Shown here one piece after another: positions 2,645 through 41,094 of a DNA stretch of 64,000 bases (positions are counted from its first letter, which is position 1; each line of letters starts with the position of its first letter). The notes below the pieces were generated by a model. The model was not told where the DNA came from. It searched no databases and saw nothing but the letters and a program-made list of their open reading frames with translations. The position numbers and the translations under genes were made by a program. The stretch comes from an uncultured Gammaproteobacteria bacterium (lineage in GTDB: Bacteria; Patescibacteriota; Microgenomatia; Levybacterales; UBA12049). The stretch is taken from the NCBI GenBank assembly GCA_964474445.1, contig CAYYSJ010000004.1, positions 64,185 through 128,184 on the forward strand, in the 5' to 3' direction.

Positions 2645-4375
2645 ATGTTGAAAGAAGAATTAACACAAGCAATACAGCAAGTAGTGAAGCAATTAACAGA
2701 AAAGGAGATAATTTTTACTCTTTCTATTCCGAAAGAAAATAAAAATGGAGACTGGACTTCGAATATTGCTTTCCAACTTAGCAAAGATTTAGGCACATCA
2801 CCATTAGAAGCAGCCAATAAAGTTGTAAGTCTCTTGGAAGAAACCGGAAAATTTTCGGGAATTGTAAAAGCAGAGGCTGTTGCTCCTGGCTTTATTAATT
2901 TTTACCTTACAAACACCGAATTAAGCAGATGCATGTCTATTCTGCTAAATGATCCAGAAAAGGTTGGTAGGACGACTAAAATGAAAAATAAAAAGATGAT
3001 GGTTGAATTTGCTCATCCAAATACGCATAAAGAATTGCATATTGGCCACATGCGTACTCTCACAACAGGAGAATCCCTTGCAAGACTTTTCCAGGCAAAT
3101 GGTGCAGAAGTGTTTCGTGCGAATTATCAAGGAGATATTGGTCCTCATGTGGCAAAGGCAATTCATGGTATAGAAAACATGATGGCAGAGCAACAGCTTT
3201 CCCTTGAGGATATAGAGAAGTGGAGTTTTGTTGAAAAAGCTCATTTCTTGGGACAAGGGTATGCGAGGGGAAGTAAAGACTATGAAGAAGGGGCAAAAGA
3301 GGAGATAGACGCACTTAATGTTGCTTTATACAAAAGGGATCCGAAATATCAGGATATCTATCAACGCACCAGAAAGTGGAGTTTGGACTATTATGATGAA
3401 TTTTACACAAGGTTTTATACGAAGTTCGATAAGTTGTTTTTTGAAGGTGACTTAGATGAAGAAGCTGTGAAGATAGTTGCAGACAACATCGGAAAAGTCT
3501 TCCGCAAAGATCCAGATGGGTCAGTCGTTTTTTCTGGAGAGCCGTATGGACTTCATACACGAGTCTTTATTACACAAAAAGGAACCCCTACTTATGAAGG
3601 AAAAGAAGTAGCATTGGGCTTTGCTGAATACAATGCATTTCCATTTGATTTAAAAATCCATGTTGTGGCAAGCGAGCAAACAGGGTACTTCAAGGTAGTT
3701 TTCAAGGCAATGGAGATGATTGATTCTAAGAAGTTTGAAGGTCACGAATACCACCTTCCAATGGGTATGGTGCAACTTGTGGGAAGGAAAATGAGCTCCC
3801 GAACAGGTGATGTTTTAACTGTTGACGAGCTTTTGAATAAGGTCAAAGAAGCTGCTTCTCAACAATTTAGGGAGGATAAGTTAAGCGAAGAAGAAAGAGA
3901 AACCGTGCTTGAGCAAGTCACTATTGGGGCAGTAAAATATTCTATTCTGAAAGGAGGAGTTACCCAGAATGCACTTTTTGATATTGAAAAGTCTGTTAGC
4001 TTGCAGGGTAACTCTGGGCCTTACGTGCAATATACTTATACAAGAACACAAAGTGTGTTAGGAAAAGCAGATAGCCTGGAAACTCAAGCGGCTGATAATT
4101 ACAGCCCAGAAAAGGAAGAGATAGAGATTTTAAGAAAACTCTACCATTTTCCAGAGGTGGTTGAGGAAGCAGCTATAACCTACAGTCCCAATGTAGTGAC
4201 AGAGTATTTGTTTGAATTGTCCCAGTTATTTAACAACTTCTACCAGAGATATCGCATTTTGAATGCTCCAACTGATACAGAAAAAAGTTTTAGATTAGGC
4301 TTGACACAAGCAACAGGCATGGTCATCAGACAAGGTCTCAACCTTCTTGGTATCCAAGCTCCTGCAAAGATGTAA
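2645..4375 (+). CDS. argS: arginine--tRNA ligase
   Basis: Class I HIGH motif (HIGHMRT), KMSKS-like KMSSR, DALR anticodon-binding C-terminus ending in M. Length 576 aa. Confidence 0.95.
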   Translation: MLKEELTQAIQQVVKQLTEKEIIFTLSIPKENKNGDWTSNIAFQLSKDLGTSPLEAANKVVSLLEETGKFSGIVKAEAVAPGFINFYLTNTELSRCMSILLNDPEKVGRTTKMKNKKMMVEFAHPNTHKELHIGHMRTLTTGESLARLFQANGAEVFRANYQGDIGPHVAKAIHGIENMMAEQQLSLEDIEKWSFVEKAHFLGQGYARGSKDYEEGAKEEIDALNVALYKRDPKYQDIYQRTRKWSLDYYDEFYTRFYTKFDKLFFEGDLDEEAVKIVADNIGKVFRKDPDGSVVFSGEPYGLHTRVFITQKGTPTYEGKEVALGFAEYNAFPFDLKIHVVASEQTGYFKVVFKAMEMIDSKKFEGHEYHLPMGMVQLVGRKMSSRTGDVLTVDELLNKVKEAASQQFREDKLSEEERETVLEQVTIGAVKYSILKGGVTQNALFDIEKSVSLQGNSGPYVQYTYTRTQSVLGKADSLETQAADNYSPEKEEIEILRKLYHFPEVVEEAAITYSPNVVTEYLFELSQLFNNFYQRYRILNAPTDTEKSFRLGLTQATGMVIRQGLNLLGIQAPAKM

Positions 4376-4440
4376 CTTCCCTCGTAATCAAACTTAAAAC
4401 TTATAGTAAAAACAATCTTGAGAGAAGCTCAGGAGCTCTT

Positions 4441-5775
4441 TTGAGCAAGGACTTTCTCCATCTTGAATCTTTGACAGAACCTGATATACTAAGTAATACT
4501 TTTATGCAGTATAAGCGTACAGTTTTACCAAACGGCCTCAGAATGATTACCGTCCCTATGCCTTCATTTGAAACAGCAACTGTGCTTGTCATGGTTGGGG
4601 CAGGAAGTAGATATGAGACTAAGCTTAACAATGGTATTTCTCATTTTTTAGAGCACATGGCGTTTAAAGGAACACAGAAAAGACCGAATGCCATGGCTAT
4701 TTCATCCTTAATTGATGGGATTGGGGGAGAATTCAATGCGTTTACCTCAAAAGAATACACAGGCTATTACATCAAAGCGCAAAGCAATCACATCGAGCTT
4801 TCTTTAGATTTACTTTCTGATATGCTTAACAACTCAGTTTTTGATGAAAAGGAAATAGAAAAAGAAAAGGGCGTGATTATTGAGGAAATTAATATGTATG
4901 AGGACACTCCTATGCGAAACCTTGGGGACGTCTATGAAAGAGTATTGTACGATGACACGCCTATGGGTTGGGATACTGCAGGAACAAAAGACGTTATTTC
5001 CAAAGTAACTCGAAATGATTTTGTTGAGTATATGAAATCTCTCTATAGTGCTGACAATATGACTGTTATTGTAGCTGGGGGGCTTGATAGTACCAAAGTT
5101 GAAGATATGGTGAAAAAATATTTTGGTGGTATGCCACAATTCCCAATATTGAAGGCATTACCTGTTACTGAAGATCAGAACGAGCCAAATTCTTATGTAA
5201 AAGAAAAAACAACAGAACAAGTTCATTTAGCAATTGGAGTGAGAACTGTTCCATTAGGACATCCTGATGAAGATGCATTGGAAGTATTAGCCAATATTTT
5301 GGGTGGAGGGATGAGTAGTCGCCTTTTCAGTGAAGTAAGAGAAAAAAGAGGCTTAGCATATTATGTACGCATGTCTTCTGATAACTACACTGATTGTGGG
5401 ACACTAGTTGCAACAGCTGGTGTTGATCCAAAACGAGCTCAAGATGCCGTAAGAGTGATTTTAGAAGAGCTTGGAAGAATTAAAGAACCTGGGAATGTTA
5501 CAGAAGAAGAACTGAAGCGTGCAAAAGAGTATATTAATGGTCATTTTGTGATGGATTTAGAAGATTCACGCTCAGTGGCTATCTATTTTGCTCATCAGGA
5601 AATTTTAGAAAATAGAATTTATACACCAGTTGAAAATATTGAAAAGATCAATAAGGTAAGTCTTGCTGATATTGAGCGAGTTGCACAGAAATATCTCGCA
5701 GAAAAGACTCTAAATTTCGCTGTGATTGGAAAATTTGATACCCAAAATGTAGAAAATCTCCTAAAATTAGCGTAA
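4441..5775 (+). CDS. M16 family (pitrilysin/insulinase-like) zinc peptidase
   Basis: Inverted zinc motif HFLEHMAFKGT (HxxEH). The LPNGLR N-terminal signature suggests the real start is the Met at 4504. Confidence 0.85.
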   Translation: MSKDFLHLESLTEPDILSNTFMQYKRTVLPNGLRMITVPMPSFETATVLVMVGAGSRYETKLNNGISHFLEHMAFKGTQKRPNAMAISSLIDGIGGEFNAFTSKEYTGYYIKAQSNHIELSLDLLSDMLNNSVFDEKEIEKEKGVIIEEINMYEDTPMRNLGDVYERVLYDDTPMGWDTAGTKDVISKVTRNDFVEYMKSLYSADNMTVIVAGGLDSTKVEDMVKKYFGGMPQFPILKALPVTEDQNEPNSYVKEKTTEQVHLAIGVRTVPLGHPDEDALEVLANILGGGMSSRLFSEVREKRGLAYYVRMSSDNYTDCGTLVATAGVDPKRAQDAVRVILEELGRIKEPGNVTEEELKRAKEYINGHFVMDLEDSRSVAIYFAHQEILENRIYTPVENIEKINKVSLADIERVAQKYLAEKTLNFAVIGKFDTQNVENLLKLA

Positions 5776-5869
5776 CTCCATAGTCATCTTTAGAAATCCT
5801 ATTGCAAAGACTATCTATTGAAGATACAATGGAGTAGTTATAAGCTAGTAGTCTTTAATAACTAAACAT

Positions 5870-6334
5870 ATGGAACAAACAGTTGTTTTGGTAAAACCGG
5901 ATGGTGTGCAGCGGGGACTTATTGGTGAAATCATCCACAGATTTGAACGAAAAGGACTTCACTTAGTTGCTCTCAAAATGGTGAATCTCTCGACAGAACT
6001 TCTTGAAGAGTGGTATGCACACCATAAAGATAAGCCTTTTTTCCCAGCACTTAAAGGATATATGCAGTCTTATCCGGTCGTTGCAATGGTATGGGAAGGA
6101 ATGGATGTTGCAGTAACAGTTCGTACTATGATTGGTATCACTAAGGCTCGTGATGCAGCTCCTGGTACAATTCGAGGTGACTTTGGCATGTCTCAACAAT
6201 ACAATTTAATTCATGCATCTGAATCAGCCGAAGCAGCACGAAAAGAAGTGGCTTTACTTTTCAATGAGAGTGATATTTTCCCCTGGCACAAGTTAGATAA
6301 ATCTCAAATCTACTCCGAAGAAGAATTAGCATAG
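5870..6334 (+). CDS. ndk: nucleoside diphosphate kinase
   Basis: VKPDGVQRGL N-terminus, NLIHASES active-site His region, ~150 aa. Confidence 0.95.
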   Translation: MEQTVVLVKPDGVQRGLIGEIIHRFERKGLHLVALKMVNLSTELLEEWYAHHKDKPFFPALKGYMQSYPVVAMVWEGMDVAVTVRTMIGITKARDAAPGTIRGDFGMSQQYNLIHASESAEAARKEVALLFNESDIFPWHKLDKSQIYSEEELA

Positions 6335-6345
6335 TTCTCCAAGAT

Positions 6346-6374
6346 TTGACAGAAACCTATTTTGATCCTATAAT
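6346..6374 (+). promoter_or_regulatory. perfect-consensus sigma70 promoter TTGACA-17-TATAAT, 8 nt upstream of the ATG (leaderless-type)
   Basis: TTGACA at 6346-6351, 17-nt spacer, TATAAT at 6369-6374, ATG at 6383. Confidence 0.55.
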
Positions 6375-6382
6375 ATCTCTAT

Positions 6383-7057
6383 ATGGTAATGAGATATGAG
6401 CTTTTGAGAGGTAGACCTCAATTTGCAACTCCTGACACGAGATATTGGGCTATGCCTGCAGATGAAAGATTAAGGGCGGTAATGAACCAAGTTCGAATAG
6501 ATATCCCACCCCACTTTAAGTTAGGAGACAGTGGTAAATTAAAAGGGAGAATAAAAGATTGGTTAGAATGGCCAGAAGCTTATAAGTTAGGAGAAGAAGA
6601 AACTAAGAGAAGACAACAACGCATTGCAGAAGAAGTTAGTGCTCTTTTGCCGCGAACTGACAGATTGGCATGGTTAGATCTGGAGAGTGATTACCCAAGT
6701 CTCACCATTGATGGCAATGTCCCTGCTAATATGCGAAAAGCTGATTTTATCTTATCATTCTTTGATGCTGGAAATCCTGGACTTTTAGCAAAGCTTACGT
6801 CACGCGATTTTGATGCATTTATGAATTGGGCTGCATCAGATAGACTTCCATATTGTTTAACTTCAGAGAATGAAATGGAAAGAGCTTATACTAATAAAAT
6901 TCCCTTGGGCCAAACAACTCACCAGTCAGCTGCTCGAGAAGAAGTTTACGACTATCTTCGTGAAGTTGGCTCGAGAACAGGTATAAGGAGAAGAACAGCA
7001 CGTTTTAATATGAAACAGTTAGAAAAACGATTATACCAAAAATATCCTCGGGGCTAA
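6383..7057 (+). CDS. hypothetical protein (224 aa, Arg-rich, no TM)
   Basis: Long clean ORF directly behind a consensus promoter. No motif recognised. Confidence 0.6.
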   Translation: MVMRYELLRGRPQFATPDTRYWAMPADERLRAVMNQVRIDIPPHFKLGDSGKLKGRIKDWLEWPEAYKLGEEETKRRQQRIAEEVSALLPRTDRLAWLDLESDYPSLTIDGNVPANMRKADFILSFFDAGNPGLLAKLTSRDFDAFMNWAASDRLPYCLTSENEMERAYTNKIPLGQTTHQSAAREEVYDYLREVGSRTGIRRRTARFNMKQLEKRLYQKYPRG

Positions 7058-36918: not shown

Positions 36919-37368
36919 TTAAGACTTGGGAGATGGTAAGGAACGATCAGAGACTTTTGGTGTTAGGGGATTCTTCCCATCACAACTTGTATGTCCTTTA
37001 CAAGAAGTTGCAACGGTTGAGAGCCAATTAGCGACAGATTGGCAACTTTTTGCTGAGCCTAAGATAATTTTGGTATTGTCTCCACAAGAATAATGAACAT
37101 ATCGATAAAGACCATTCCCACAAGATTCTACTACAGAAAGGTTACCTTTGAGGACAAAACAGCCATTGGAAAGATGACTACTATCGGTGGAGATAGTATC
37201 CTTCGTCTCAGCTGCTTGTGTTTCAATTCCTTTTACAGATTTATAGGTCGAATAGGTATATAAAGCAACAAAGACAACACCAAGGAGTACCAGGAGCATC
37301 CCGATAAGCCACTTGTTGGATGCTGCAAGGGTACGAATAACACTCGTTTTGTGATGAAGCTTTGCCAT
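36919..37368 (-). CDS. membrane-anchored Cys-rich extracytoplasmic protein
   Basis: N-terminal TM plus 6 Cys in ~100 aa. Confidence 0.5.
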   Translation of the reverse strand: MAKLHHKTSVIRTLAASNKWLIGMLLVLLGVVFVALYTYSTYKSVKGIETQAAETKDTISTDSSHLSNGCFVLKGNLSVVESCGNGLYRYVHYSCGDNTKIILGSAKSCQSVANWLSTVATSCKGHTSCDGKNPLTPKVSDRSLPSPKS

Positions 37369-37568
37369 GTTATTGTAATAGTGAATTATGCAAAGAGGGA
37401 TGTCAATAAGTGATTAGTGTTTTGTTAAAAAGAATCCAATATATGCAATAGCAAGTCCAATAGACAGAACACCGAGTCCAATAAGTATCATGTTACTCCA
37501 CGTATAGTCCTGGGGGATAAGTGGTTTTTTCTTCATCAGTTTGATTATTAGTACGATAGGAATATATG

Positions 37569-38138
37569 TCAACCAGCAACAGGGGTATGTTTTTTGTTTG
37601 CTGTAAGACTAAATCCAAAAAGAGAAAATAATGCAAGTCCACTCATACAGAAGAAAAGAAAACGGAACCCAAACCAGGTAACTAAAAATCCTCCTAAAAA
37701 CGTCCCAGATGCAGTCATAATATTGCTAATAATTTGCCAGTCTGCATAATCATGAATATGTTCATGCTTCTCCAAATGTTCAGCAAAAAGGGCATTAAAT
37801 GCAGGAGAGCCAAATGATTCTCCCATTCCTAAAAGAATTTGCAGCAAAATCAGTTCGGGCAATGAATGGATAAATCCATACATGAGCCACACAAATGCTC
37901 GTATAAGAAAGCCAGCTCTGAGCATATCTATCTCACGGTTTGTTCCATCTTTAAAACGAGAGATAACGTATGTGCCAACAGTTGTTGCTATCAAAAAAAC
38001 AGACCATGAAGTACTAACAGTAATAACACTTTGTCCTAAACGAAGGACATAGACAGCGTACAAAGGTCCAAGGAGGCTTGATGCAAGGACAAAAACTCCA
38101 TTAAAGGTAAAGAGGGCACGAAGAATTGAATCTCTCAC
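37569..38138 (-). CDS. MFS-like 6-TM half-size transporter (possible truncated remnant)
   Basis: 189 aa, six hydrophobic helices resembling one MFS half. No second half found adjacent. Confidence 0.5.
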   Translation of the reverse strand: MRDSILRALFTFNGVFVLASSLLGPLYAVYVLRLGQSVITVSTSWSVFLIATTVGTYVISRFKDGTNREIDMLRAGFLIRAFVWLMYGFIHSLPELILLQILLGMGESFGSPAFNALFAEHLEKHEHIHDYADWQIISNIMTASGTFLGGFLVTWFGFRFLFFCMSGLALFSLFGFSLTANKKHTPVAG

Positions 38139-38205
38139 ACTTTTAGTATAGACACTTTTTAAGACTTTTTTGCAAGATTCAATATGCTTTCCAAAAAGTA
38201 ATCAA

Positions 38206-38234
38206 TTGACAAAGGGGAAATGTCACAGTATAGT
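38206..38234 (+). promoter_or_regulatory. sigma70-like promoter TTGACA-17-TATAGT
   Basis: TTGACA 38206-38211, TATAGT 38229-38234. Leader ORF ATG at 38244. Confidence 0.55.
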
Positions 38235-38243
38235 CTCTTTACT

Positions 38244-38285
38244 ATGATACTCAACACAGTTGTTTGCTGCTGCAGCTTCGCTTAG
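38244..38285 (+). CDS. leader peptide MILNTVVCCCSFA (13 codons) with three tandem Cys codons
   Basis: ATG ATA CTC AAC ACA GTT GTT TGC TGC TGC AGC TTC GCT TAG. The stop overlaps the first GCGGGG segment of the alternative hairpins. Confidence 0.5.
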   Translation: MILNTVVCCCSFA

Positions 38286-38334
38286 CGGGGTTGTAGTTTT
38301 CTTGTGTTTAACACCCCGCAAAGCGGGGTTTTTT
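38285..38334 (+). promoter_or_regulatory. attenuator: alternative antiterminator (GCGGGG 38285-38290 : CCCCGC 38314-38319) versus terminator (CCCCGC : GCGGGG 38323-38328 + T6 38329-38334)
   Basis: Mutually exclusive hairpins read directly from the sequence. Terminator sits 14 nt upstream of the LmbE-family gene start. Confidence 0.5.
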
Positions 38335-38348
38335 GATGGTTAAAATAT

Positions 38349-39335
38349 ATGAGTGCAGAAAAAGAAATAAAAAGTGAAGAAATCGTGCCAATGGCAAAAC
38401 AGACGCCATTTGGTCTCTTGTCTGAGTCTGATAAGTGGTTTGAGCACACCTTTCCAAAAGGAGAAGAAAACTCCATTCACAAAAAGGCTGTTGTGATACT
38501 AGCACATCCAGATGATGCAGAAGATCTGCTTGGAGGAACAATTGTCAAATTATCAGAACAGGGATTTGATACAACACTTGTCATTGTGACAGATGGGCAA
38601 TGGGGAGTAGATCACAGAAATCCAATGAGTCCAAACGATCTTATTCGAATACGCCTTGAAGAGACACTGTTGGGTGCAAGAGGACTGGGAGTAGGGAAAG
38701 TGATAAATCTAGGAATTGAAGATAGAGAAGTGCCAGAGGATCCAAAGGCAGATAAAGTATTGTTACATAATTTGGTAGAGGTTCTGTCTCAAAATCCAGC
38801 AAGTGTCTATCTAACCCATGCAACGCCTGAAAATAATGACACGAAAGATTACCATGCAGACCACCGAAATACTGCAAAACTTGCACTCGAAGCAATTCAA
38901 CGACCCCGAAATGGCAATGGTGAGATGGCTGAACAACCGCTTCTTTTATATGCAGACACACAAGGGGCTCGAAATGCACATGGGATTACAAGACGTTTGG
39001 GAAGAGTTTTTCCAAAAGCAGCAGCAGTTGATATGCTGATTGATATAACAGAGGTTGTTTGGAGAAAAGAAAAAGCGTTCTCTTTCCACATGACACAAAT
39101 AGGGAATACTCCAAAGGATGTTGCACATGATTATGTGGTGCAGGGACGAGAGGTATCGAGATTTCGTGCACGTCAAGCACGACGAAGATTTTTGAGAAAA
39201 CCCCATTTTGCAGAAGGCCTATCTTTGCACACAGGACATGGATTTAGTACTGATATAACAAGAGTCTTTAAGAGCAAAGATGTATTTACTCCTAAGAGGA
39301 TTTTTACGAGACGACGTGCTCCTATCTTTTACTAA
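38349..39335 (+). CDS. LmbE/PIG-L family N-acetylglucosaminyl deacetylase (MshB/BshB-like)
   Basis: VVILAHPDDAE signature and downstream His/Asp residues. Arg-rich C-terminal tail. Confidence 0.85.
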   Translation: MSAEKEIKSEEIVPMAKQTPFGLLSESDKWFEHTFPKGEENSIHKKAVVILAHPDDAEDLLGGTIVKLSEQGFDTTLVIVTDGQWGVDHRNPMSPNDLIRIRLEETLLGARGLGVGKVINLGIEDREVPEDPKADKVLLHNLVEVLSQNPASVYLTHATPENNDTKDYHADHRNTAKLALEAIQRPRNGNGEMAEQPLLLYADTQGARNAHGITRRLGRVFPKAAAVDMLIDITEVVWRKEKAFSFHMTQIGNTPKDVAHDYVVQGREVSRFRARQARRRFLRKPHFAEGLSLHTGHGFSTDITRVFKSKDVFTPKRIFTRRRAPIFY

Positions 39336-39492
39336 TGTGGTTTTCTGAAAAAAAGCTTATTCTTTATGTAAGAAAAGTAGATCAATTTAGGACTTGACTA
39401 TAACAATTCCTCTTCTTTGATTTAGCCTATTATGACAGTCTAAATGGAGATCTCTTATCTGCACGTCATTTGTTGACAGACCTTCCACAACT

Positions 39493-41094
39493 TTGGTAAA
39501 AGACAGACTCAGGAGTAAGAACTTGGAAAGAAATCCAAATGACTTTATGAAGAAAAAAATTCTGCCCATTATGACAAAAAAGTTACTATCAATTCTTTTA
39601 TTACTACCGCTTGTTATTGGAATAGGGTTCTATGCATATAAACCAGTTGCACAAGCGCAAGATGTATCCATTTTACAAAATCCTTGGTCTTTCCAAGCAC
39701 AGAGTGGACCTATTGAACAATATCAATCTGTTAATCCGAATATCCTTTCAGGTGGATCAACAGTACAAGTGACATACAACCTTCATGGACTTTGTGCGCT
39801 ATCCGGTGATGCATCTGCGCTTATTTTTGATCAAAATGGATGGAAATATGTAGCACTTTCTCAGTACGGTCAGAATTGTAAAGATGGGCAACAGACAGTT
39901 TCTATTCCTCTCTCTGATTTTAAAGATATTAGCAATGGGCAACAACTCAACACAAATGCTCCGCTTACTGGATCATTCCATGCAAGATTTTGGTATGACA
40001 AACCATATACCGTTGATATTACAAATGTTACAATAACCACAACTGGTTCTAGTTCTGGAAGCACAACCAATCCAACCCCAACTGTAGTTGTAACACCAAC
40101 TTCTGCACCGACAAATACACCTCCTGCCGTAGTAACACCTTCAGTACCTCAACAAGGTTCAGGGTCTATGCCAAGTTCAAATGCGGGCGGTACCTTTGCA
40201 GTCCAAAGTATTGATGCGATGAAAGATACCAAAGATGCAATTTGCGGTCCTAGACCAACAGACTGGATTAATAAATGGCTTGATAAAGCAGTAGAATTAG
40301 GAGCAGGTTATGTTGCGATCTCTACTCCTTATGAAAATCCATCCTGTGGTGATGCATTGGCTTATACAAAAACATGGGTACAAGCAATCCGTGCACATGG
40401 TCTGCATGTCTGGCATAGACACATGCCTCTTTCCTTCGAAGGTATTTATAGTACACCAAAAACAACGGGGAATAATTACCTCGATCTGATCAGTAATTAT
40501 ATTAAAAATAATCCAGATATTTTCGAGAATGGCGATATCTTTACCCCAATTCCAGAGCCTCAAAACGGCGGGATTCAAAATGTTACCTATTGTGCAAATA
40601 ACGTCTGCCAGTTCCAAAGCCCTGCAGCATTTAACCAGTGGCTTCGTGATGCAATGACAACTGCAAAAAGTGCCTCTCAAGCAATTGGCAAAGATATGAA
40701 AATTGGATACTTTGGATTTGATGGATTTGTTGCTTGGGGCGATAAGAATCCTGATTGGCATGGCATTCTTGAAGATAGTACAGTAGCCCAAATGGGAAAT
40801 ATCACAATCGATCATTACCCAGAGACCGTCGGAGAGACAATGGACCAAGCACTCACCACTTTGCAAACGAAGTATCCAACTACACCAATTGTGATAGGAG
40901 AATATGGAACAGTGAATGGAACAAACGTAGATCAGGAAGTGCAAGATACTATGACTGCAGCAAAAAATCACAAAGTGGTTGGATTTAATTACTGGCAATT
41001 TGGTCCTTCGGGATCTGGTGAACAACTGATTAATAATGATTTCTCTAATAGATCTGATTTCTCAATAGTCCAATCCTTCTACAAAGCAAAATAG
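39493..41094 (+). CDS. secreted putative glycoside hydrolase (TIM-barrel, GH5-like) with N-terminal beta-sandwich and T/P-rich linker
   Basis: Signal/TM (start probably at MKKK, 39547). Linker TTGSSSGSTTNPTPTVVVTPT. IGEYG near the C-terminus resembles a GH5 nucleophile region. Confidence 0.55.
   Translation: MVKDRLRSKNLERNPNDFMKKKILPIMTKKLLSILLLLPLVIGIGFYAYKPVAQAQDVSILQNPWSFQAQSGPIEQYQSVNPNILSGGSTVQVTYNLHGLCALSGDASALIFDQNGWKYVALSQYGQNCKDGQQTVSIPLSDFKDISNGQQLNTNAPLTGSFHARFWYDKPYTVDITNVTITTTGSSSGSTTNPTPTVVVTPTSAPTNTPPAVVTPSVPQQGSGSMPSSNAGGTFAVQSIDAMKDTKDAICGPRPTDWINKWLDKAVELGAGYVAISTPYENPSCGDALAYTKTWVQAIRAHGLHVWHRHMPLSFEGIYSTPKTTGNNYLDLISNYIKNNPDIFENGDIFTPIPEPQNGGIQNVTYCANNVCQFQSPAAFNQWLRDAMTTAKSASQAIGKDMKIGYFGFDGFVAWGDKNPDWHGILEDSTVAQMGNITIDHYPETVGETMDQALTTLQTKYPTTPIVIGEYGTVNGTNVDQEVQDTMTAAKNHKVVGFNYWQFGPSGSGEQLINNDFSNRSDFSIVQSFYKAK

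What the first reader, a model, noticed from the sequence alone, without database searches (positions are those of the whole stretch)
38206..38348. Leader-peptide attenuator with three tandem Cys codons upstream of an LmbE/PIG-L deacetylase
**What the sequence shows.** A consensus-like promoter (TTGACA-17-TATAGT) sits 9 nt before a 13-codon ORF, MILNTVVCCCSFA. Its three consecutive TGC codons lie at 38265-38273. The TAG stop overlaps a GCGGGG segment (38285-38290). That segment can pair with CCCCGC (38314-38319) as an antiterminator. CCCCGC can instead pair with a second GCGGGG (38323-38328) followed by T6, forming an intrinsic terminator 14 nt before the deacetylase start.

**Interpretation.** This is the geometry of ribosome-mediated attenuation (trp/his/leu-type), here with Cys as the sensed amino acid. 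A ribosome reaching the stop would mask the first GCGGGG and favour termination. A ribosome stalled at the Cys codons would leave it free to antiterminate.

**Why it matters.** LmbE-family enzymes include the GlcNAc deacetylases of Cys-containing low-molecular-weight thiol pathways (MshB, BshB). A Cys-sensing leader in front of such a gene would be a coherent regulatory system that I believe is undescribed. Three adjacent Cys codons in a 13-codon ORF framed by competing hairpins are unlikely to arise by chance.
Basis: partly seen in the sequence, partly recalled or inferred. Interest (0 to 1): 0.85.

Follow-up and report, generated by a model that had tools for sequence, protein, structure and literature searches.

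The report
Cysteine-sensing leader-peptide transcription attenuator
A 13-codon mini-gene with three cysteine codons, followed by competing RNA hairpins, most likely switches on the downstream deacetylase gene when cysteine runs short; it is conserved in related uncultured bacteria, but it is a new example of a known kind of switch.

Summary
There is a TTGACA-17-TATAGT promoter, then the 13-codon ORF MILNTVVCCCSFA 9 nt later. A GCGGGGT segment starts at the stop codon, and the terminator ACCCCGC-AAA-GCGGGGT-T6 ends 14 nt before a PIG-L/LmbE gene. With it, the classical 1:2 / 2:3 / 3:4 layout is complete.

Protein-anchored searches recovered eight further loci with the same device. Each has a start codon 7-9 nt after the -10 box (leaderless), a CC or CCC run, and a stop 5-8 codons after the first Cys. 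Regions R1-R4 covary. A modelled ribosome stalled at the first Cys codon abolishes the terminator in 9/9 loci. A ribosome at the stop restores it in 9/9.

The usual target is an uncharacterised RimK/LysX-like ATP-grasp ligase, with or without the PIG-L gene. The window's lineage keeps only PIG-L. In Marinimicrobia the same ligase follows a SAM-I riboswitch and precedes CysM/CysO-like genes.

Cys-codon leaders are already described in mycobacteria and upstream of Rhodobacterales cysS. This is a new member of a known kind. The link to low-molecular-weight thiols is unproven.

The parts
38206..38234 (+). Sigma-70-type promoter: TTGACA (38206-11), 17-nt spacer, TATAGT (38229-34)
   Evidence: It matches 11/12 consensus positions, tied for best in the scanned 3 kb (37000-40000). 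The same TTGACA-17-TATA(G/T)T box sits at the same distance from the leader start codon in L019, L004, L001 and L003.
38244..38285 (+). Leader short ORF, 13 codons plus stop: MILNTVVCCCSFA*. It starts 9 nt after the -10 box, which leaves a 0-3 nt 5' UTR and no room for a Shine-Dalgarno sequence.
   Evidence: Equivalent ORFs of 13-18 codons with a CC or CCC run occur in 8 other loci. The Cys codons differ only by TGC/TGT.
38265..38273 (+). Three tandem Cys codons (TGC TGC TGC), the proposed sensing codons
   Evidence: Two or three consecutive Cys codons are present in 9/9 low-GC loci. The first Cys lies 5-8 codons before the stop.
38269..38281 (+). Region 1: 5' arm of the 5' hairpin (pause/anti-antiterminator). 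It lies inside the ORF, from Cys codon 2 to the last sense codon.
   Evidence: The 13-bp stem is in the minimum-energy fold and is flagged by the terminator scan. Helix 1 covaries: 4 pairs change on both sides.
38285..38297 (+). Region 2 (core GCGGGGT, 38285-91). It starts on the last base of the stop codon and pairs either with region 1 or with region 3.
   Evidence: The region 2 core is an exact copy of region 4 in the window and in several other loci, though the sequence differs between loci.
38278..38326 (+). Extended antiterminator: 38278-83 + 38285-91 + 38293-94 pair with 38311-12 + 38313-19 + 38321-26. This sequesters all of region 3 and 4 of the 7 bases of region 4.
   Evidence: It is the minimum-energy fold (-21.5 kcal/mol) when a ribosome is modelled with the first Cys codon in the A site. 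Inverted repeat I1 confirms the arms. Covariation score is 0.277 against 0.10 or less for slid controls.
38313..38319 (+). Region 3 (ACCCCGC): shared 5' arm of the terminator and 3' arm of the antiterminator
38323..38334 (+). Region 4 (GCGGGGT, 38323-29) and the T6 run (38329-34). Together with region 3 this forms an intrinsic terminator with a 7-bp stem, an AAA loop and a free energy of -12.6 kcal/mol.
   Evidence: Helix 2 is 100% paired in 7 sequences, with 3 pairs changed on both sides.
38336..38377 (+). ATG 1 nt after the T-run. It opens a 13-codon ORF that overlaps the PIG-L start out of frame. The G-rich region 4 lies at Shine-Dalgarno distance from it. Its role is uncertain.
   Evidence: A start codon lies 0-1 nt after the U-run in 10 of the 12 low-GC attenuators (11 if a TTG in L067 is counted). 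In 3 of them it is the start of the structural gene itself.
38349..39335 (+). Regulated gene: a PIG-L/LmbE-family metallo-deacetylase or amidase of 328 aa, substrate unknown
   Evidence: Pfam PF02585, 73.7 bits. It falls below the BshB1, BshB2, MshB and Mca cut-offs. Foldseek matches diacetylchitobiose deacetylase and BC1534 best.
39493..41094 (+). Possibly co-transcribed 533-aa secreted protein (weak GH5 match). No terminator was detected between it and the PIG-L gene. Whether it belongs to the unit is uncertain.
   Evidence: It keeps the same position downstream in L019 (79% identity) and L001 (74-77% identity).

Best explanation
This is a classical ribosome-mediated transcription attenuator that reports the supply of Cys-tRNA(Cys).

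**Proposed sequence of events**
1. Transcription starts 0-3 nt before the AUG of a 13-codon leader ORF. Translation therefore begins in leaderless fashion.
2. Cys replete: the ribosome runs to the UAG. Its footprint then covers region 2, which begins on the last base of the stop codon. Region 3 pairs with region 4, and RNA polymerase terminates at the T6 run.
3. No translation: region 1 pairs with region 2, so region 3 again pairs with region 4 and transcription terminates.
4. Cys-tRNA scarce: the ribosome stalls with the first Cys codon in its A site. It covers most of region 1 but leaves the last sense codons, the stop and region 2 free. These pair with region 3 and the 5' half of region 4, forming the extended antiterminator. 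No terminator forms, and the PIG-L gene is transcribed. In relatives the gene transcribed is an ATP-grasp ligase, with or without PIG-L.

**Shown here:** the sequence elements, their conservation and covariation, and the footprint-dependent switch in the folding model.

**Inferred:** the transcription start site, translation of the ORF, pausing at the 1:2 hairpin, and the actual response to cysteine.

**Unknown:** the biochemical role of the regulated enzymes. Gene context points to cysteine or sulfur metabolism.
For: **1. Anatomy in the window.** All four regions, the promoter and the T-run are present.

**2. Unbiased conservation.** All loci fetched through protein homology that include the upstream DNA carry the device.
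- PIG-L orthologues at 66-71% identity: L001, L003, L004.
- ATP-grasp homologues at 56-68% identity: L001, L004, L051, L053, L054, L067.
- L019 keeps the leader MTRNVTVCCSNFA even though its PIG-L protein is only 32% identical.

**3. Signs of translation.**
- Cys codons vary only TGC/TGT.
- ORF lengths differ by whole codons (13-18).
- The residues after the Cys run are not conserved as amino acids (SFA, NFA, NSI, HLS, HLL, YST, EIF, ILS, FQS), yet they keep pairing with region 2.

**4. Covariation.**
- Regions R1, R2, R3 and R4 change together: GCGGGG/CCCCGC, UCGGGG/CCCCGA, GGGAGG/CCUCCC, GGAGG/CCUCC.
- On a covariance-model alignment, the terminated state is 92.5% paired, with 7 pairs changed on both sides. 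Its score is 0.482, against 0.14 or less for slid controls; 0/500 shuffles reach it.
- The antiterminator is 86.8% paired, with a score of 0.277 against 0.10 or less for slid controls; 0/500 shuffles reach it.

**5. Switch model.**
- With the A site on the first Cys codon, 0 terminator pairs survive in 9/9 loci.
- With the A site on the stop, the terminator is complete in 9/9 loci.
- Dinucleotide shuffles of the spacer disrupt the terminator in only 2-17% of trials per locus.

**6. Leaderless start is plausible.**
- The -10 box lies 7-9 nt before the start codon in all nine loci.
- In the window only 6/53 genes have a Shine-Dalgarno-like motif.
- Seven of 53 genes have a -10-like hexamer 6-9 nt before their ATG.

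**7. Regulatory logic.**
- In Marinimicrobia the orthologous ATP-grasp gene lies behind a SAM-I riboswitch (76.9 bits). It precedes CysM-, Mec- and CysO/MoeZ-like genes.
- It sits next to cysS in L067.
- It lies behind a Cys/Met-rich leader in a 63% GC genome.

**8. Precedent.** Cys-codon attenuators have been described.
Against: - There is no experimental or transcriptomic evidence for the start site, for translation of the ORF, for termination at 38334, or for any cysteine response.
- The bare 2:3 core (7 bp with a 21-nt loop) is weaker than the 3:4 hairpin. In the window, L001 and L003 the antiterminator wins in the model only when the ribosome stalls at the first Cys codon. With the second or third Cys in the A site the terminator is the minimum-energy fold. 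The model is an equilibrium one and assumes a footprint reaching 13 nt from the first A-site base.
- With a 9-nt gap after the -10 box, the mRNA may carry a 2-3 nt leader rather than start exactly at the AUG.
- The nine sequences fall into about five lineages, so the covariation statistics rest on few independent events.
- The regulated genes are not recognisable cysteine biosynthesis, transport or charging genes.
Confidence: 0.85

Rival explanations
1. The short ORF senses Cys, but control is mainly translational, or acts through Rho or ribosome delivery, as at mycobacterial Ms5788A. On this view the 3:4 hairpin matters because it hides a ribosome-binding site, not because it terminates transcription.
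For: The G-rich region 4 (GGAGG or GGGG) lies 6-8 nt before an ATG or GTG that follows the U-run in 10 of 12 low-GC attenuators. In three of them that codon starts the structural gene. The one dissected mycobacterial case is translational.
Against: Every locus has a canonical intrinsic terminator: a GC-rich stem of 7-9 bp, a loop of 3-5 nt and 6-8 U. In the window the ATG after the U-run is out of frame with PIG-L. The genome rarely uses Shine-Dalgarno sequences. The two mechanisms are not exclusive.
Confidence: 0.06
2. The short ORF encodes a functional Cys-rich micropeptide. It could be a substrate or carrier for the adjacent LysX/ArgX/RimK/PsnB-like ATP-grasp ligase, or a RiPP precursor. 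The hairpins would simply end its transcript.
For: The closest structures to the ATP-grasp model are enzymes that modify peptides or protein C-termini: ArgX/LysX with LysW, PsnB, and RimK. The peptide gene lies directly upstream of the ligase in six loci.
Against: The C-terminal residues are not conserved and no C-terminal Glu is present. The peptide is only 13-18 aa, with no separate leader and core. The window, L003 and L019 have the ORF but no ATP-grasp gene nearby. In Marinimicrobia a SAM riboswitch takes its place. This reading does not explain the covarying antiterminator that overlaps the terminator. Architecturally identical Thr-run leaders precede a ThrRS operon in L054.
Confidence: 0.04
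3. The RNA is a ligand- or protein-binding switch, such as an unknown riboswitch or a target of an RNA-binding protein. The ORF would be untranslated and incidental.
For: Alternative terminator and antiterminator pairings are also typical of riboswitch expression platforms. There is no direct evidence that the ORF is translated.
Against: Rfam shows no match. Nothing is conserved outside the four pairing regions and the ORF. The start codon, frame, Cys-Cys run and stop position are kept across about five lineages while the nucleotide sequence changes. There is no aptamer-sized conserved structure: the whole element is about 90 nt and half of it is ORF.
Confidence: 0.03
4. A chance ORF sits between a constitutive promoter and a leaky terminator, with no regulatory role.
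For: A 13-codon ORF and short GC-rich repeats can arise by chance. The fold z-score for the window alone is only -2.8.
Against: The arrangement recurs in nine loci with covariation. It is the only such ORF in 64 kb.
Confidence: 0.01

Closest known systems
Classical leader-peptide transcription attenuators (trp, his, thr, leu, pheA, ilv operons of Proteobacteria; trp of Corynebacterium and Streptomyces)
   Same: Both have a promoter-proximal short ORF with a run of codons for one amino acid. Both have four regions forming 1:2, 2:3 and 3:4 pairings. In both, the stop codon is placed so that a terminating ribosome masks region 2, and an intrinsic terminator precedes the structural genes.
   Different: The sensed amino acid is Cys. 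The ORF is leaderless or nearly so, rather than led by a Shine-Dalgarno sequence. The element is unusually compact, about 91 nt from AUG to the end of the U-run. The host is a Patescibacteria-like uncultured bacterium. The regulated genes (PIG-L, ATP-grasp) are not known biosynthetic genes for the sensed amino acid.
Polycysteine leaderless short-ORF attenuators of mycobacteria (Canestrari et al. 2020, bioRxiv 10.1101/834739; predicted by Seliverstov et al. 2005, PMC1262725)
   Same: Both are leaderless short ORFs with 2 or more consecutive Cys codons near the C-terminus. In both, stalling relieves repression of downstream operon genes when Cys is low. Several loci per genome can carry one: L054 has two. 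One mycobacterial target operon contains mshA, a thiol-pathway gene.
   Different: The dissected mycobacterial case acts on translation by sequestering a Shine-Dalgarno sequence, and no conserved terminators were found there. Here every locus has a canonical intrinsic terminator and a covarying antiterminator. There is no sequence homology, and the phylum and target genes differ.
uORFC-8-2 motif upstream of cysS in Rhodobacterales (Brewer et al. 2021, PMC8632094)
   Same: Both have a uORF with two tandem Cys codons (UGC or UGU) and stems ending in a U-run. Both are proposed to work by ribosome-mediated transcription attenuation that senses Cys-tRNA.
   Different: In that motif the Cys codons lie at uORF positions 14-15, inside the first stem. 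It is found only upstream of cysS in alpha-proteobacteria and is presumably led by a Shine-Dalgarno sequence. Here the Cys codons lie at positions 7-14, mostly 5' of region 1, and the targets are ATP-grasp and PIG-L genes. Sequence relatedness was not tested; Rfam 15 gave no match.
SAM-I (S-box) riboswitch control of sulfur amino-acid genes
   Same: It controls the orthologous ATP-grasp gene in Marinimicrobia (L055, RF00162, 76.9 bits). It is thus the functional counterpart at the same position in the regulon.
   Different: It senses the metabolite SAM directly through an RNA aptamer, with no ORF and no ribosome involved.

Membership tests
Leader-peptide (ribosome-mediated) transcription attenuator | A short ORF immediately downstream of the promoter and upstream of the structural gene | tested here: met
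   A 13-codon ORF lies at 38244-85, 9 nt after the -10 box. Equivalent ORFs occur in 8 other loci.
Leader-peptide (ribosome-mediated) transcription attenuator | A run of codons for one amino acid in the ORF, conserved as codons | tested here: met
   A CC or CCC run is present in 9/9 loci. Only synonymous TGC/TGT variation is seen.
Leader-peptide (ribosome-mediated) transcription attenuator | An intrinsic terminator between the ORF and the structural gene | tested here: met
   The terminator is ACCCCGC-AAA-GCGGGGT-T6, with a free energy of -12.6 kcal/mol. The helix is 100% paired in 7 aligned sequences and 3 pairs covary.
Leader-peptide (ribosome-mediated) transcription attenuator | A mutually exclusive antiterminator that shares the 5' arm of the terminator | tested here: met
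   The inverted repeat 38279-91 / 38313-25 is present. The antiterminator is 86.8% paired and its covariation score is 0.277 against 0.10 or less for slid controls.
Leader-peptide (ribosome-mediated) transcription attenuator | Geometry: a ribosome at the regulatory codons frees region 2, and a ribosome at the stop covers it | tested here: met
   Region 2 starts within 1 nt of the stop codon in 7/9 loci. Constrained folds switch in 9/9 loci. The shuffle control disrupts the terminator in 2-17% of trials. This is a model result only.
Leader-peptide (ribosome-mediated) transcription attenuator | Regulated genes act in the supply or charging of the sensed amino acid | tested here: inconclusive
   The functions of PIG-L and the ATP-grasp ligase are unknown. 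Context links the ATP-grasp gene to a SAM riboswitch, CysM/CysO-like genes and cysS.
Leader-peptide (ribosome-mediated) transcription attenuator | Read-through rises on starvation for the amino acid and depends on translation of the ORF | not testable with these tools
   This needs reporter assays, term-seq or an in vitro coupled transcription-translation system.
Mycobacterial polycysteine leaderless short-ORF attenuators | A leaderless mRNA that begins at the start codon of the short ORF | tested here: inconclusive
   Promoter geometry puts the -10 box 7-9 nt before the start codon in 9/9 loci. No mapped transcription start site is available.
Mycobacterial polycysteine leaderless short-ORF attenuators | At least two consecutive Cys codons near the C-terminus of the short ORF | tested here: met
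Mycobacterial polycysteine leaderless short-ORF attenuators | Attenuation by an RNA duplex that sequesters the Shine-Dalgarno sequence of the next gene, with no terminator | tested here: not met
   A canonical terminator is present in all loci. PIG-L has no Shine-Dalgarno sequence. Region 4 could still act as a Shine-Dalgarno sequence for the ATG after the U-run.
Any curated RNA family (Rfam 15, including T-box, SAM and the amino-acid leader families) | A score at or above the family's gathering threshold | tested here: not met
   Only chance-level matches were found (E of 2.3 or more, all far below threshold) in 37500-39000. The leaders of L051, L053 and L054 gave none.
BshB / MshB / Mca (deacetylases and amidases of low-molecular-weight thiol pathways) | A score at or above the NCBIfam equivalog cut-off | tested here: not met
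   Scores against cut-offs: BshB1 62.6 vs 182.5, BshB2 40.4 vs 195, MshB 17 vs 224, Mca 16.7 vs 277.
BshB / MshB / Mca (deacetylases and amidases of low-molecular-weight thiol pathways) | Genomic association with the pathway's glycosyltransferase and Cys ligase (BshA/BshC or MshA/MshC/MshD) | not tested
   Only the neighbours were examined: a half-size MFS gene, DUF4389 and a secreted 533-aa protein. The rest of the genome was not available.
PIG-L/LmbE superfamily (PF02585) | The Pfam domain and the metal-binding AHPDD...H motif | tested here: met
   The match scores 73.7 bits against a cut-off of 28.2. A52 H53 P54 D55 D56 and D171 H172 are invariant in the alignment. The fold matches Dac, BC1534 and BshB.

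The most novel reading that the evidence does not exclude
The Cys leader may mark an unrecognised cysteine-starvation regulon. Its centre would be a widespread, uncharacterised LysX/RimK-like ATP-grasp ligase with three invariant cysteines, joined in some Patescibacteria by the PIG-L amidase.

The same ligase is controlled by a Cys leader in Patescibacteria-like genomes. It is controlled by a SAM-I riboswitch next to CysM/CysO genes in Marinimicrobia. In a high-GC bacterium it follows a Cys/Met-rich leader. Some homologues are fused to an SsuE-like FMN reductase.

Together the two enzymes could form a new route for cysteine salvage or for handling a cysteine conjugate or thiol. Leaderless leader-peptide attenuation (Cys and Thr) may also be a general regulatory device of these reduced genomes.
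Probability: 0.3. Interest if true: 0.7.

Novelty: new member of a known kind. Interest (0 to 1): 0.5.

Why it matters
- **Regulation in Patescibacteria-like genomes.** This is a clean, comparatively supported case of amino-acid-sensing transcription attenuation in these genomes. My literature search found no described leader-peptide attenuator for them.
- **Mechanistic combination.** It joins the leaderless short-ORF logic known from mycobacteria to a canonical four-region terminator switch of only about 90 nt.
- **Functional lead.** It gives a regulatory handle on two enzyme families of unknown role. The ATP-grasp family has more than 200 members at 40-68% identity across several phyla. Three different sulfur- or cysteine-responsive leaders precede it. 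That makes a cysteine-related function a testable hypothesis.
- **What it does not show.** It does not establish a new kind of regulatory mechanism.

Tried and rejected
**1. Pattern scans.** The pattern was promoter + ATG + GTTTGYTGY.
- The scan of JGI metagenome contigs gave 23 hits, none a real leader.
- The scan of GTDB genomes gave 21 hits. Only L019 was a real new case; L007 is the same contig as L004.
- Other in-frame CC ORFs look like chance hits. Examples are L015 before gatC, L023 before uvrA, and L020, L022 and L050.

**2. Cys-sparing idea.** I asked whether PIG-L is Cys-free because it must be made during Cys starvation. This is rejected.
- The window's proteome is only 0.39% Cys, and 15 of 43 long ORFs are Cys-free.
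- The ATP-grasp proteins carry 3-7 Cys each.

**3. MAFFT alignments of the leaders (A1, A2, A5, A6).** These put regions 2-4 out of register. I used a covariance model seeded on the window plus L019 instead. It missed L054(+) and L067, and scored L003 and L051 only weakly.

**4. The 314-aa gene behind the second Cys leader of L054.** It shows no detectable relation to the ATP-grasp family (hhalign probability 0.6%) and has no Pfam domain.

**5. The L068 leader.** The simple footprint model finds no antiterminator for it. A copy of region 4 (CGAGCGG) inside its ORF suggests a different geometry. I did not pursue this.

**6. ATP-grasp in the window.** A tblastn search for the ATP-grasp gene in the 64-kb window found nothing.

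**7. Literature on the ATP-grasp family.** Searches combining it with CysO or the SAM riboswitch found nothing.

**8. Structure-based function.** AlphaFold models and Foldseek confirmed the folds but did not assign substrates.
Full report
**1. The observation**

- Promoter: TTGACA at 38206-11, a 17-nt spacer, and TATAGT at 38229-34. It matches 11 of 12 consensus positions, tied for best in the scanned 3 kb and the only such match on the + strand.
- Short ORF: it starts at ATG 38244, 9 nt after the -10 box. It reads MILNTVVCCCSFA, with TGC codons at 38265-73 and TAG at 38283-85.
- GCGGGG at 38285-90 shares its first G with the stop codon. CCCCGC lies at 38314-19 and the second GCGGGG at 38323-28. 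T6 lies at 38329-34.
- The next gene starts at 38349 and encodes a PIG-L/LmbE protein (PF02585, E=2.5e-20).

The gene upstream (37569-38138) is on the minus strand. The terminator therefore cannot belong to a preceding gene. It sits between a promoter and the gene that promoter should serve.

The repeat finder reports three things independently:
- the terminator arms;
- a 13-nt antiterminator repeat, 38279-91 with 38313-25 (92% complementary);
- a 14-nt direct repeat that makes region 2 and region 4 near-copies of each other.

The minimum-energy fold contains a 13-bp hairpin, 38269-81 with 38285-97. It runs from the second Cys codon to just past the stop. With it the element has all four regions of a classical attenuator: 1:2, 2:3 and 3:4.

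Rfam has no match. No other Cys-run short ORF in the 64 kb has a promoter and a terminator.

**2. Related loci**

The PIG-L protein has only four close relatives among 5.8 billion proteins (66-71% identity; one is labelled Patescibacteria).

All three of their contigs that include upstream DNA carry the same device:
- the same TTGACA-17-TATAGT box;
- a start codon 7-9 nt later;
- leaders MKQNTAVVCCAHLS (L001), MNQNKTVVCCAHLL (L003) and MKVNNVVVCCCNSI (L004);
- hairpins and a U-run.

In L001 and L004 the leader precedes a two-gene unit, a RimK-like ATP-grasp ligase followed by PIG-L. In the window and L003 it precedes PIG-L directly.

A pattern scan of GTDB genomes added L019.
- Its flanking MFS gene is 78% identical to the window's, and its downstream 533-aa gene is 79% identical.
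- Its PIG-L protein is only 32% identical.
- The leader MTRNVTVCCSNFA and the GCGGGG/CCUCGC/GCGGGG hairpins are nevertheless retained.
- The leader is thus better conserved than the gene it controls.

The ATP-grasp family is large: more than 200 proteins at 40-68% identity, all unannotated. I could inspect seven further contexts.
- L051, L053, L054 and L067 (56-60% identity) have no PIG-L gene nearby. Each has a Cys leader, hairpins and a U-run just upstream. The leaders are MSVYKELVIKGCCYST, MNRLTFVTCCSEIF, MKITLVCCCEAILS and (M)IKIKVSTNDDCCCHFQS.
- L067 lies divergently next to cysS.
- The Marinimicrobia loci (L055-60) have a SAM-I riboswitch (RF00162, 76.9 bits) about 330 nt upstream on the same strand. 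The ligase is followed by DUF4395 and by CysM-like, Mec-like and CysO/MoeZ-like genes.
- A 63% GC genome (L068, 40% identity) has the leader MLLCACMCACMCMCRATSGRGGHSG plus a strong terminator. There the ligase is paired with a luciferase-like monooxygenase.
- Only a Bacteroidota-like marine locus (L061) shows nothing recognisable.

The main target of the Cys leader is therefore the ATP-grasp gene. The window's lineage retains only PIG-L behind it. tblastn finds no ATP-grasp gene in the 64 kb.

**3. Evidence for the mechanism**

*(a) Signs of coding.*
- The Cys codons differ only by TGC/TGT.
- ORF lengths differ by whole codons.
- The first Cys lies 5-8 codons before the stop.
- The residues after the Cys run are not conserved as amino acids, but their nucleotides keep pairing with region 2.

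*(b) Covariation.*
- Counted from the U-run, regions R1, R2, R3 and R4 change together. For example, the quartets CGCG, UAUA and GCGC all occur at the same position.
- I built a covariance model seeded only on the window and L019. On its alignment of seven sequences, the terminated state (1:2 + 3:4) is 92.5% paired, against 40-55% when partners are slid. Seven pairs change on both sides. The covariation score is 0.482, against 0.14 or less for slid controls, and 0/500 shuffles reach it.
- On the same alignment, which was not fitted to it, the antiterminator is 86.8% paired, against 45-62% when slid. Its score is 0.277, against 0.10 or less, and 0/500 shuffles reach it.
- Swapping region 2 and region 3 zones between sequence groups weakens the duplex from about -14 to about -7 kcal/mol.

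*(c) Switch model.*
- I forbade pairing for all bases up to 13 nt from the first A-site base.
- With the first Cys codon in the A site, the minimum-energy fold is an extended antiterminator. None of the terminator pairs survive in 9/9 loci.
- With the stop codon in the A site, the terminator is complete in 9/9 loci.
- Dinucleotide shuffles of the spacer remove the terminator in only 2-17% of trials per locus.
- In the window the antiterminator (-21.5 kcal/mol) comprises 38278-83, 38285-91 and 38293-94, paired with 38311-12, 38313-19 and 38321-26. It also traps four bases of region 4.
- Region 2 begins within 1 nt of the stop in 7/9 loci.

*(d) Leaderless start.*
- The -10 box is 7-9 nt from the start codon in all nine loci.
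- In the window only 6 of 53 genes have a Shine-Dalgarno-like motif.
- Seven of 53 have a -10-like hexamer 6-9 nt before their ATG. Four of these also have a -35 box.

**4. Caveats**

- Everything mechanistic is inferred from sequence. There is no mapped start site, no evidence of translation, no measured termination and no measured cysteine response.
- In the window, L001 and L003 the antiterminator wins only for a stall at the first Cys codon. For the second or third Cys the terminator is the equilibrium fold. Kinetics, pausing and the true footprint will decide.
- The 1:2 hairpin is followed by a U-rich stretch and is itself flagged as terminator-like. It may act as a pause site, as in trp, but this is conjecture.
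- The nine leaders represent about five lineages.

**5. The regulated genes**

PIG-L:
- It has the invariant AHPDD and DH motifs.
- It is far below the BshB1, BshB2, MshB and Mca cut-offs.
- Its AlphaFold model (pLDDT 82) best matches archaeal diacetylchitobiose deacetylases and BC1534, ahead of BshB and MshB.

ATP-grasp ligase:
- Its model (pLDDT 84) best matches ArgX/LysX, PsnB, RimK and Ddl.
- It has three invariant cysteines (C213, C218 and C232) in a low-confidence loop.

I cannot assign substrates. The context is consistent with sulfur or cysteine acquisition or handling: a SAM riboswitch, CysM/CysO genes, cysS, a luciferase-like monooxygenase, and fusions to an FMN reductase (PF03358). 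An analogy exists: one mycobacterial Cys-attenuated operon contains mshA.

**6. Comparison with what is known**

- Cys-run leader peptides were predicted upstream of cys and cbs genes in Actinobacteria in 2005, without terminators (PMC1262725).
- They were shown in M. smegmatis to act as leaderless, cysteine-responsive attenuators. The dissected case works on translation (10.1101/834739).
- A tandem-Cys uORF with a terminator upstream of Rhodobacterales cysS was described in 2021 (PMC8632094).

The present element works like a trp-type attenuator and senses what the mycobacterial short ORFs sense. It differs in four ways:
- it combines leaderless initiation with a canonical four-region terminator switch;
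- its host group is different;
- its target genes are different;
- it belongs to no curated RNA family.

I found no paper on leader-peptide attenuation in Patescibacteria.

**7. Verdict**

- The novelty claim is overstated: this is a new member of a known kind.
- Confidence in the attenuator reading is 0.85.
- Interest is moderate at 0.5, mainly for two reasons. The element gives a cysteine-linked functional lead for a widespread unknown ATP-grasp family. It also suggests, together with the Thr leaders in L054, that leaderless leader-peptide attenuation is a common device in these reduced genomes.

Noticed in passing
L054: minus strand 4813-4719, 3616-3520 and 3453-3345: The same contig carries three more leaderless leader-peptide attenuators of identical architecture. 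One is a second Cys leader (MSKHFELVCCCTNS*) before an unknown 314-aa gene. Two are Thr-run leaders (MKQQFALTITTTAL* and MKYKLNLTTTTTTPIYWESL*) before a GNAT, an M20 ArgE/DapE-like deacylase and ThrRS genes. This suggests leader-peptide attenuation is a general device in these genomes.
   Followed up: partly
L055 2553-2668 (+); genes 3001-6978: A SAM-I riboswitch (RF00162, 76.9 bits) precedes the orthologous ATP-grasp gene in Marinimicrobia. The ligase is followed by DUF4395 and by CysM-like (PALP), Mec-like (JAB) and CysO/MoeZ-like (ThiS-ThiF-rhodanese) genes. This places the ATP-grasp family in a sulfur or cysteine regulon.
   Followed up: partly
L055, minus strand, short ORF starting at 2348: A classical His leader (MNMRRRHNHHHHPF...) with a terminator lies upstream of hisG-hisD in the same Marinimicrobia contig.
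   Followed up: no
L068 3846-3982 (+): In a 63% GC genome, a 25-codon leader with six Cys and four Met codons (MLLCACMCACMCMCRATSGRGGHSG*) and an 11-bp terminator precede a 40%-identical ATP-grasp gene and a luciferase-like monooxygenase. It is not leaderless. A copy of the terminator's 3' arm (CGAGCGG) lies inside the ORF. My simple footprint model did not yield an antiterminator.
   Followed up: partly
window 38323-38338, and the equivalent positions in L001, L003, L004, L019, L053, L054: An ATG or GTG lies 0-1 nt after the terminator's U-run in 10 of the 12 low-GC attenuators (a TTG in L067 would make 11). This puts the G-rich 3' arm (GGAGG or GGGG) at Shine-Dalgarno distance. In L004, L054(+) and the second Thr leader of L054 it is the structural gene's own start. 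Elsewhere it opens a mini-ORF of 3-13 codons that ends near or over the gene start. The terminator hairpin may also hide a ribosome-binding site.
   Followed up: partly
window, all 53 long ORFs: Only 6 of 53 genes have a Shine-Dalgarno-like motif. Seven have a -10-like hexamer 6-9 nt before the ATG, for example 6383, 42087, 36875(-) and 31730. Leaderless mRNAs therefore appear common in this 39% GC genome.
   Followed up: partly
ATP-grasp alignment A4 (L001 3040-4008 and homologues): Three cysteines (C213, C218, C232) are invariant across 20 sequences at 39-68% identity. They lie in the only low-confidence loop of the AlphaFold model (residues 211-236). Some homologues are fused to an SsuE-like FMN reductase domain (PF03358).
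   Followed up: no
L019 (CAZRBN010000009.1): The record is titled 'uncultured Gammaproteobacteria bacterium', but the locus is syntenic with the window. Its MFS gene is 78% identical and its 533-aa gene 79% identical. The taxonomic label is probably wrong.
   Followed up: no
L003 4001-5023: The public gene call for the PIG-L orthologue starts at an ATG inside the terminator loop (4001). The homologous start is the ATG at 4035.
   Followed up: yes
window 37569-38138 (-): The divergent neighbour is a half-size MFS protein of 189 aa covering profile positions 5-171 of 347. The same size is conserved in L003 (187 aa) and L019 (186 aa). It is either a split transporter or a six-helix one.
   Followed up: no
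window 38269-38307: The 1:2 hairpin is followed by a U-rich tract (GUUUUCUUGUGUUU) and was flagged as terminator-like by the scan. L019 has U7 and L001 has U5 at the same place. It may be a pause site or an early terminator.
   Followed up: no
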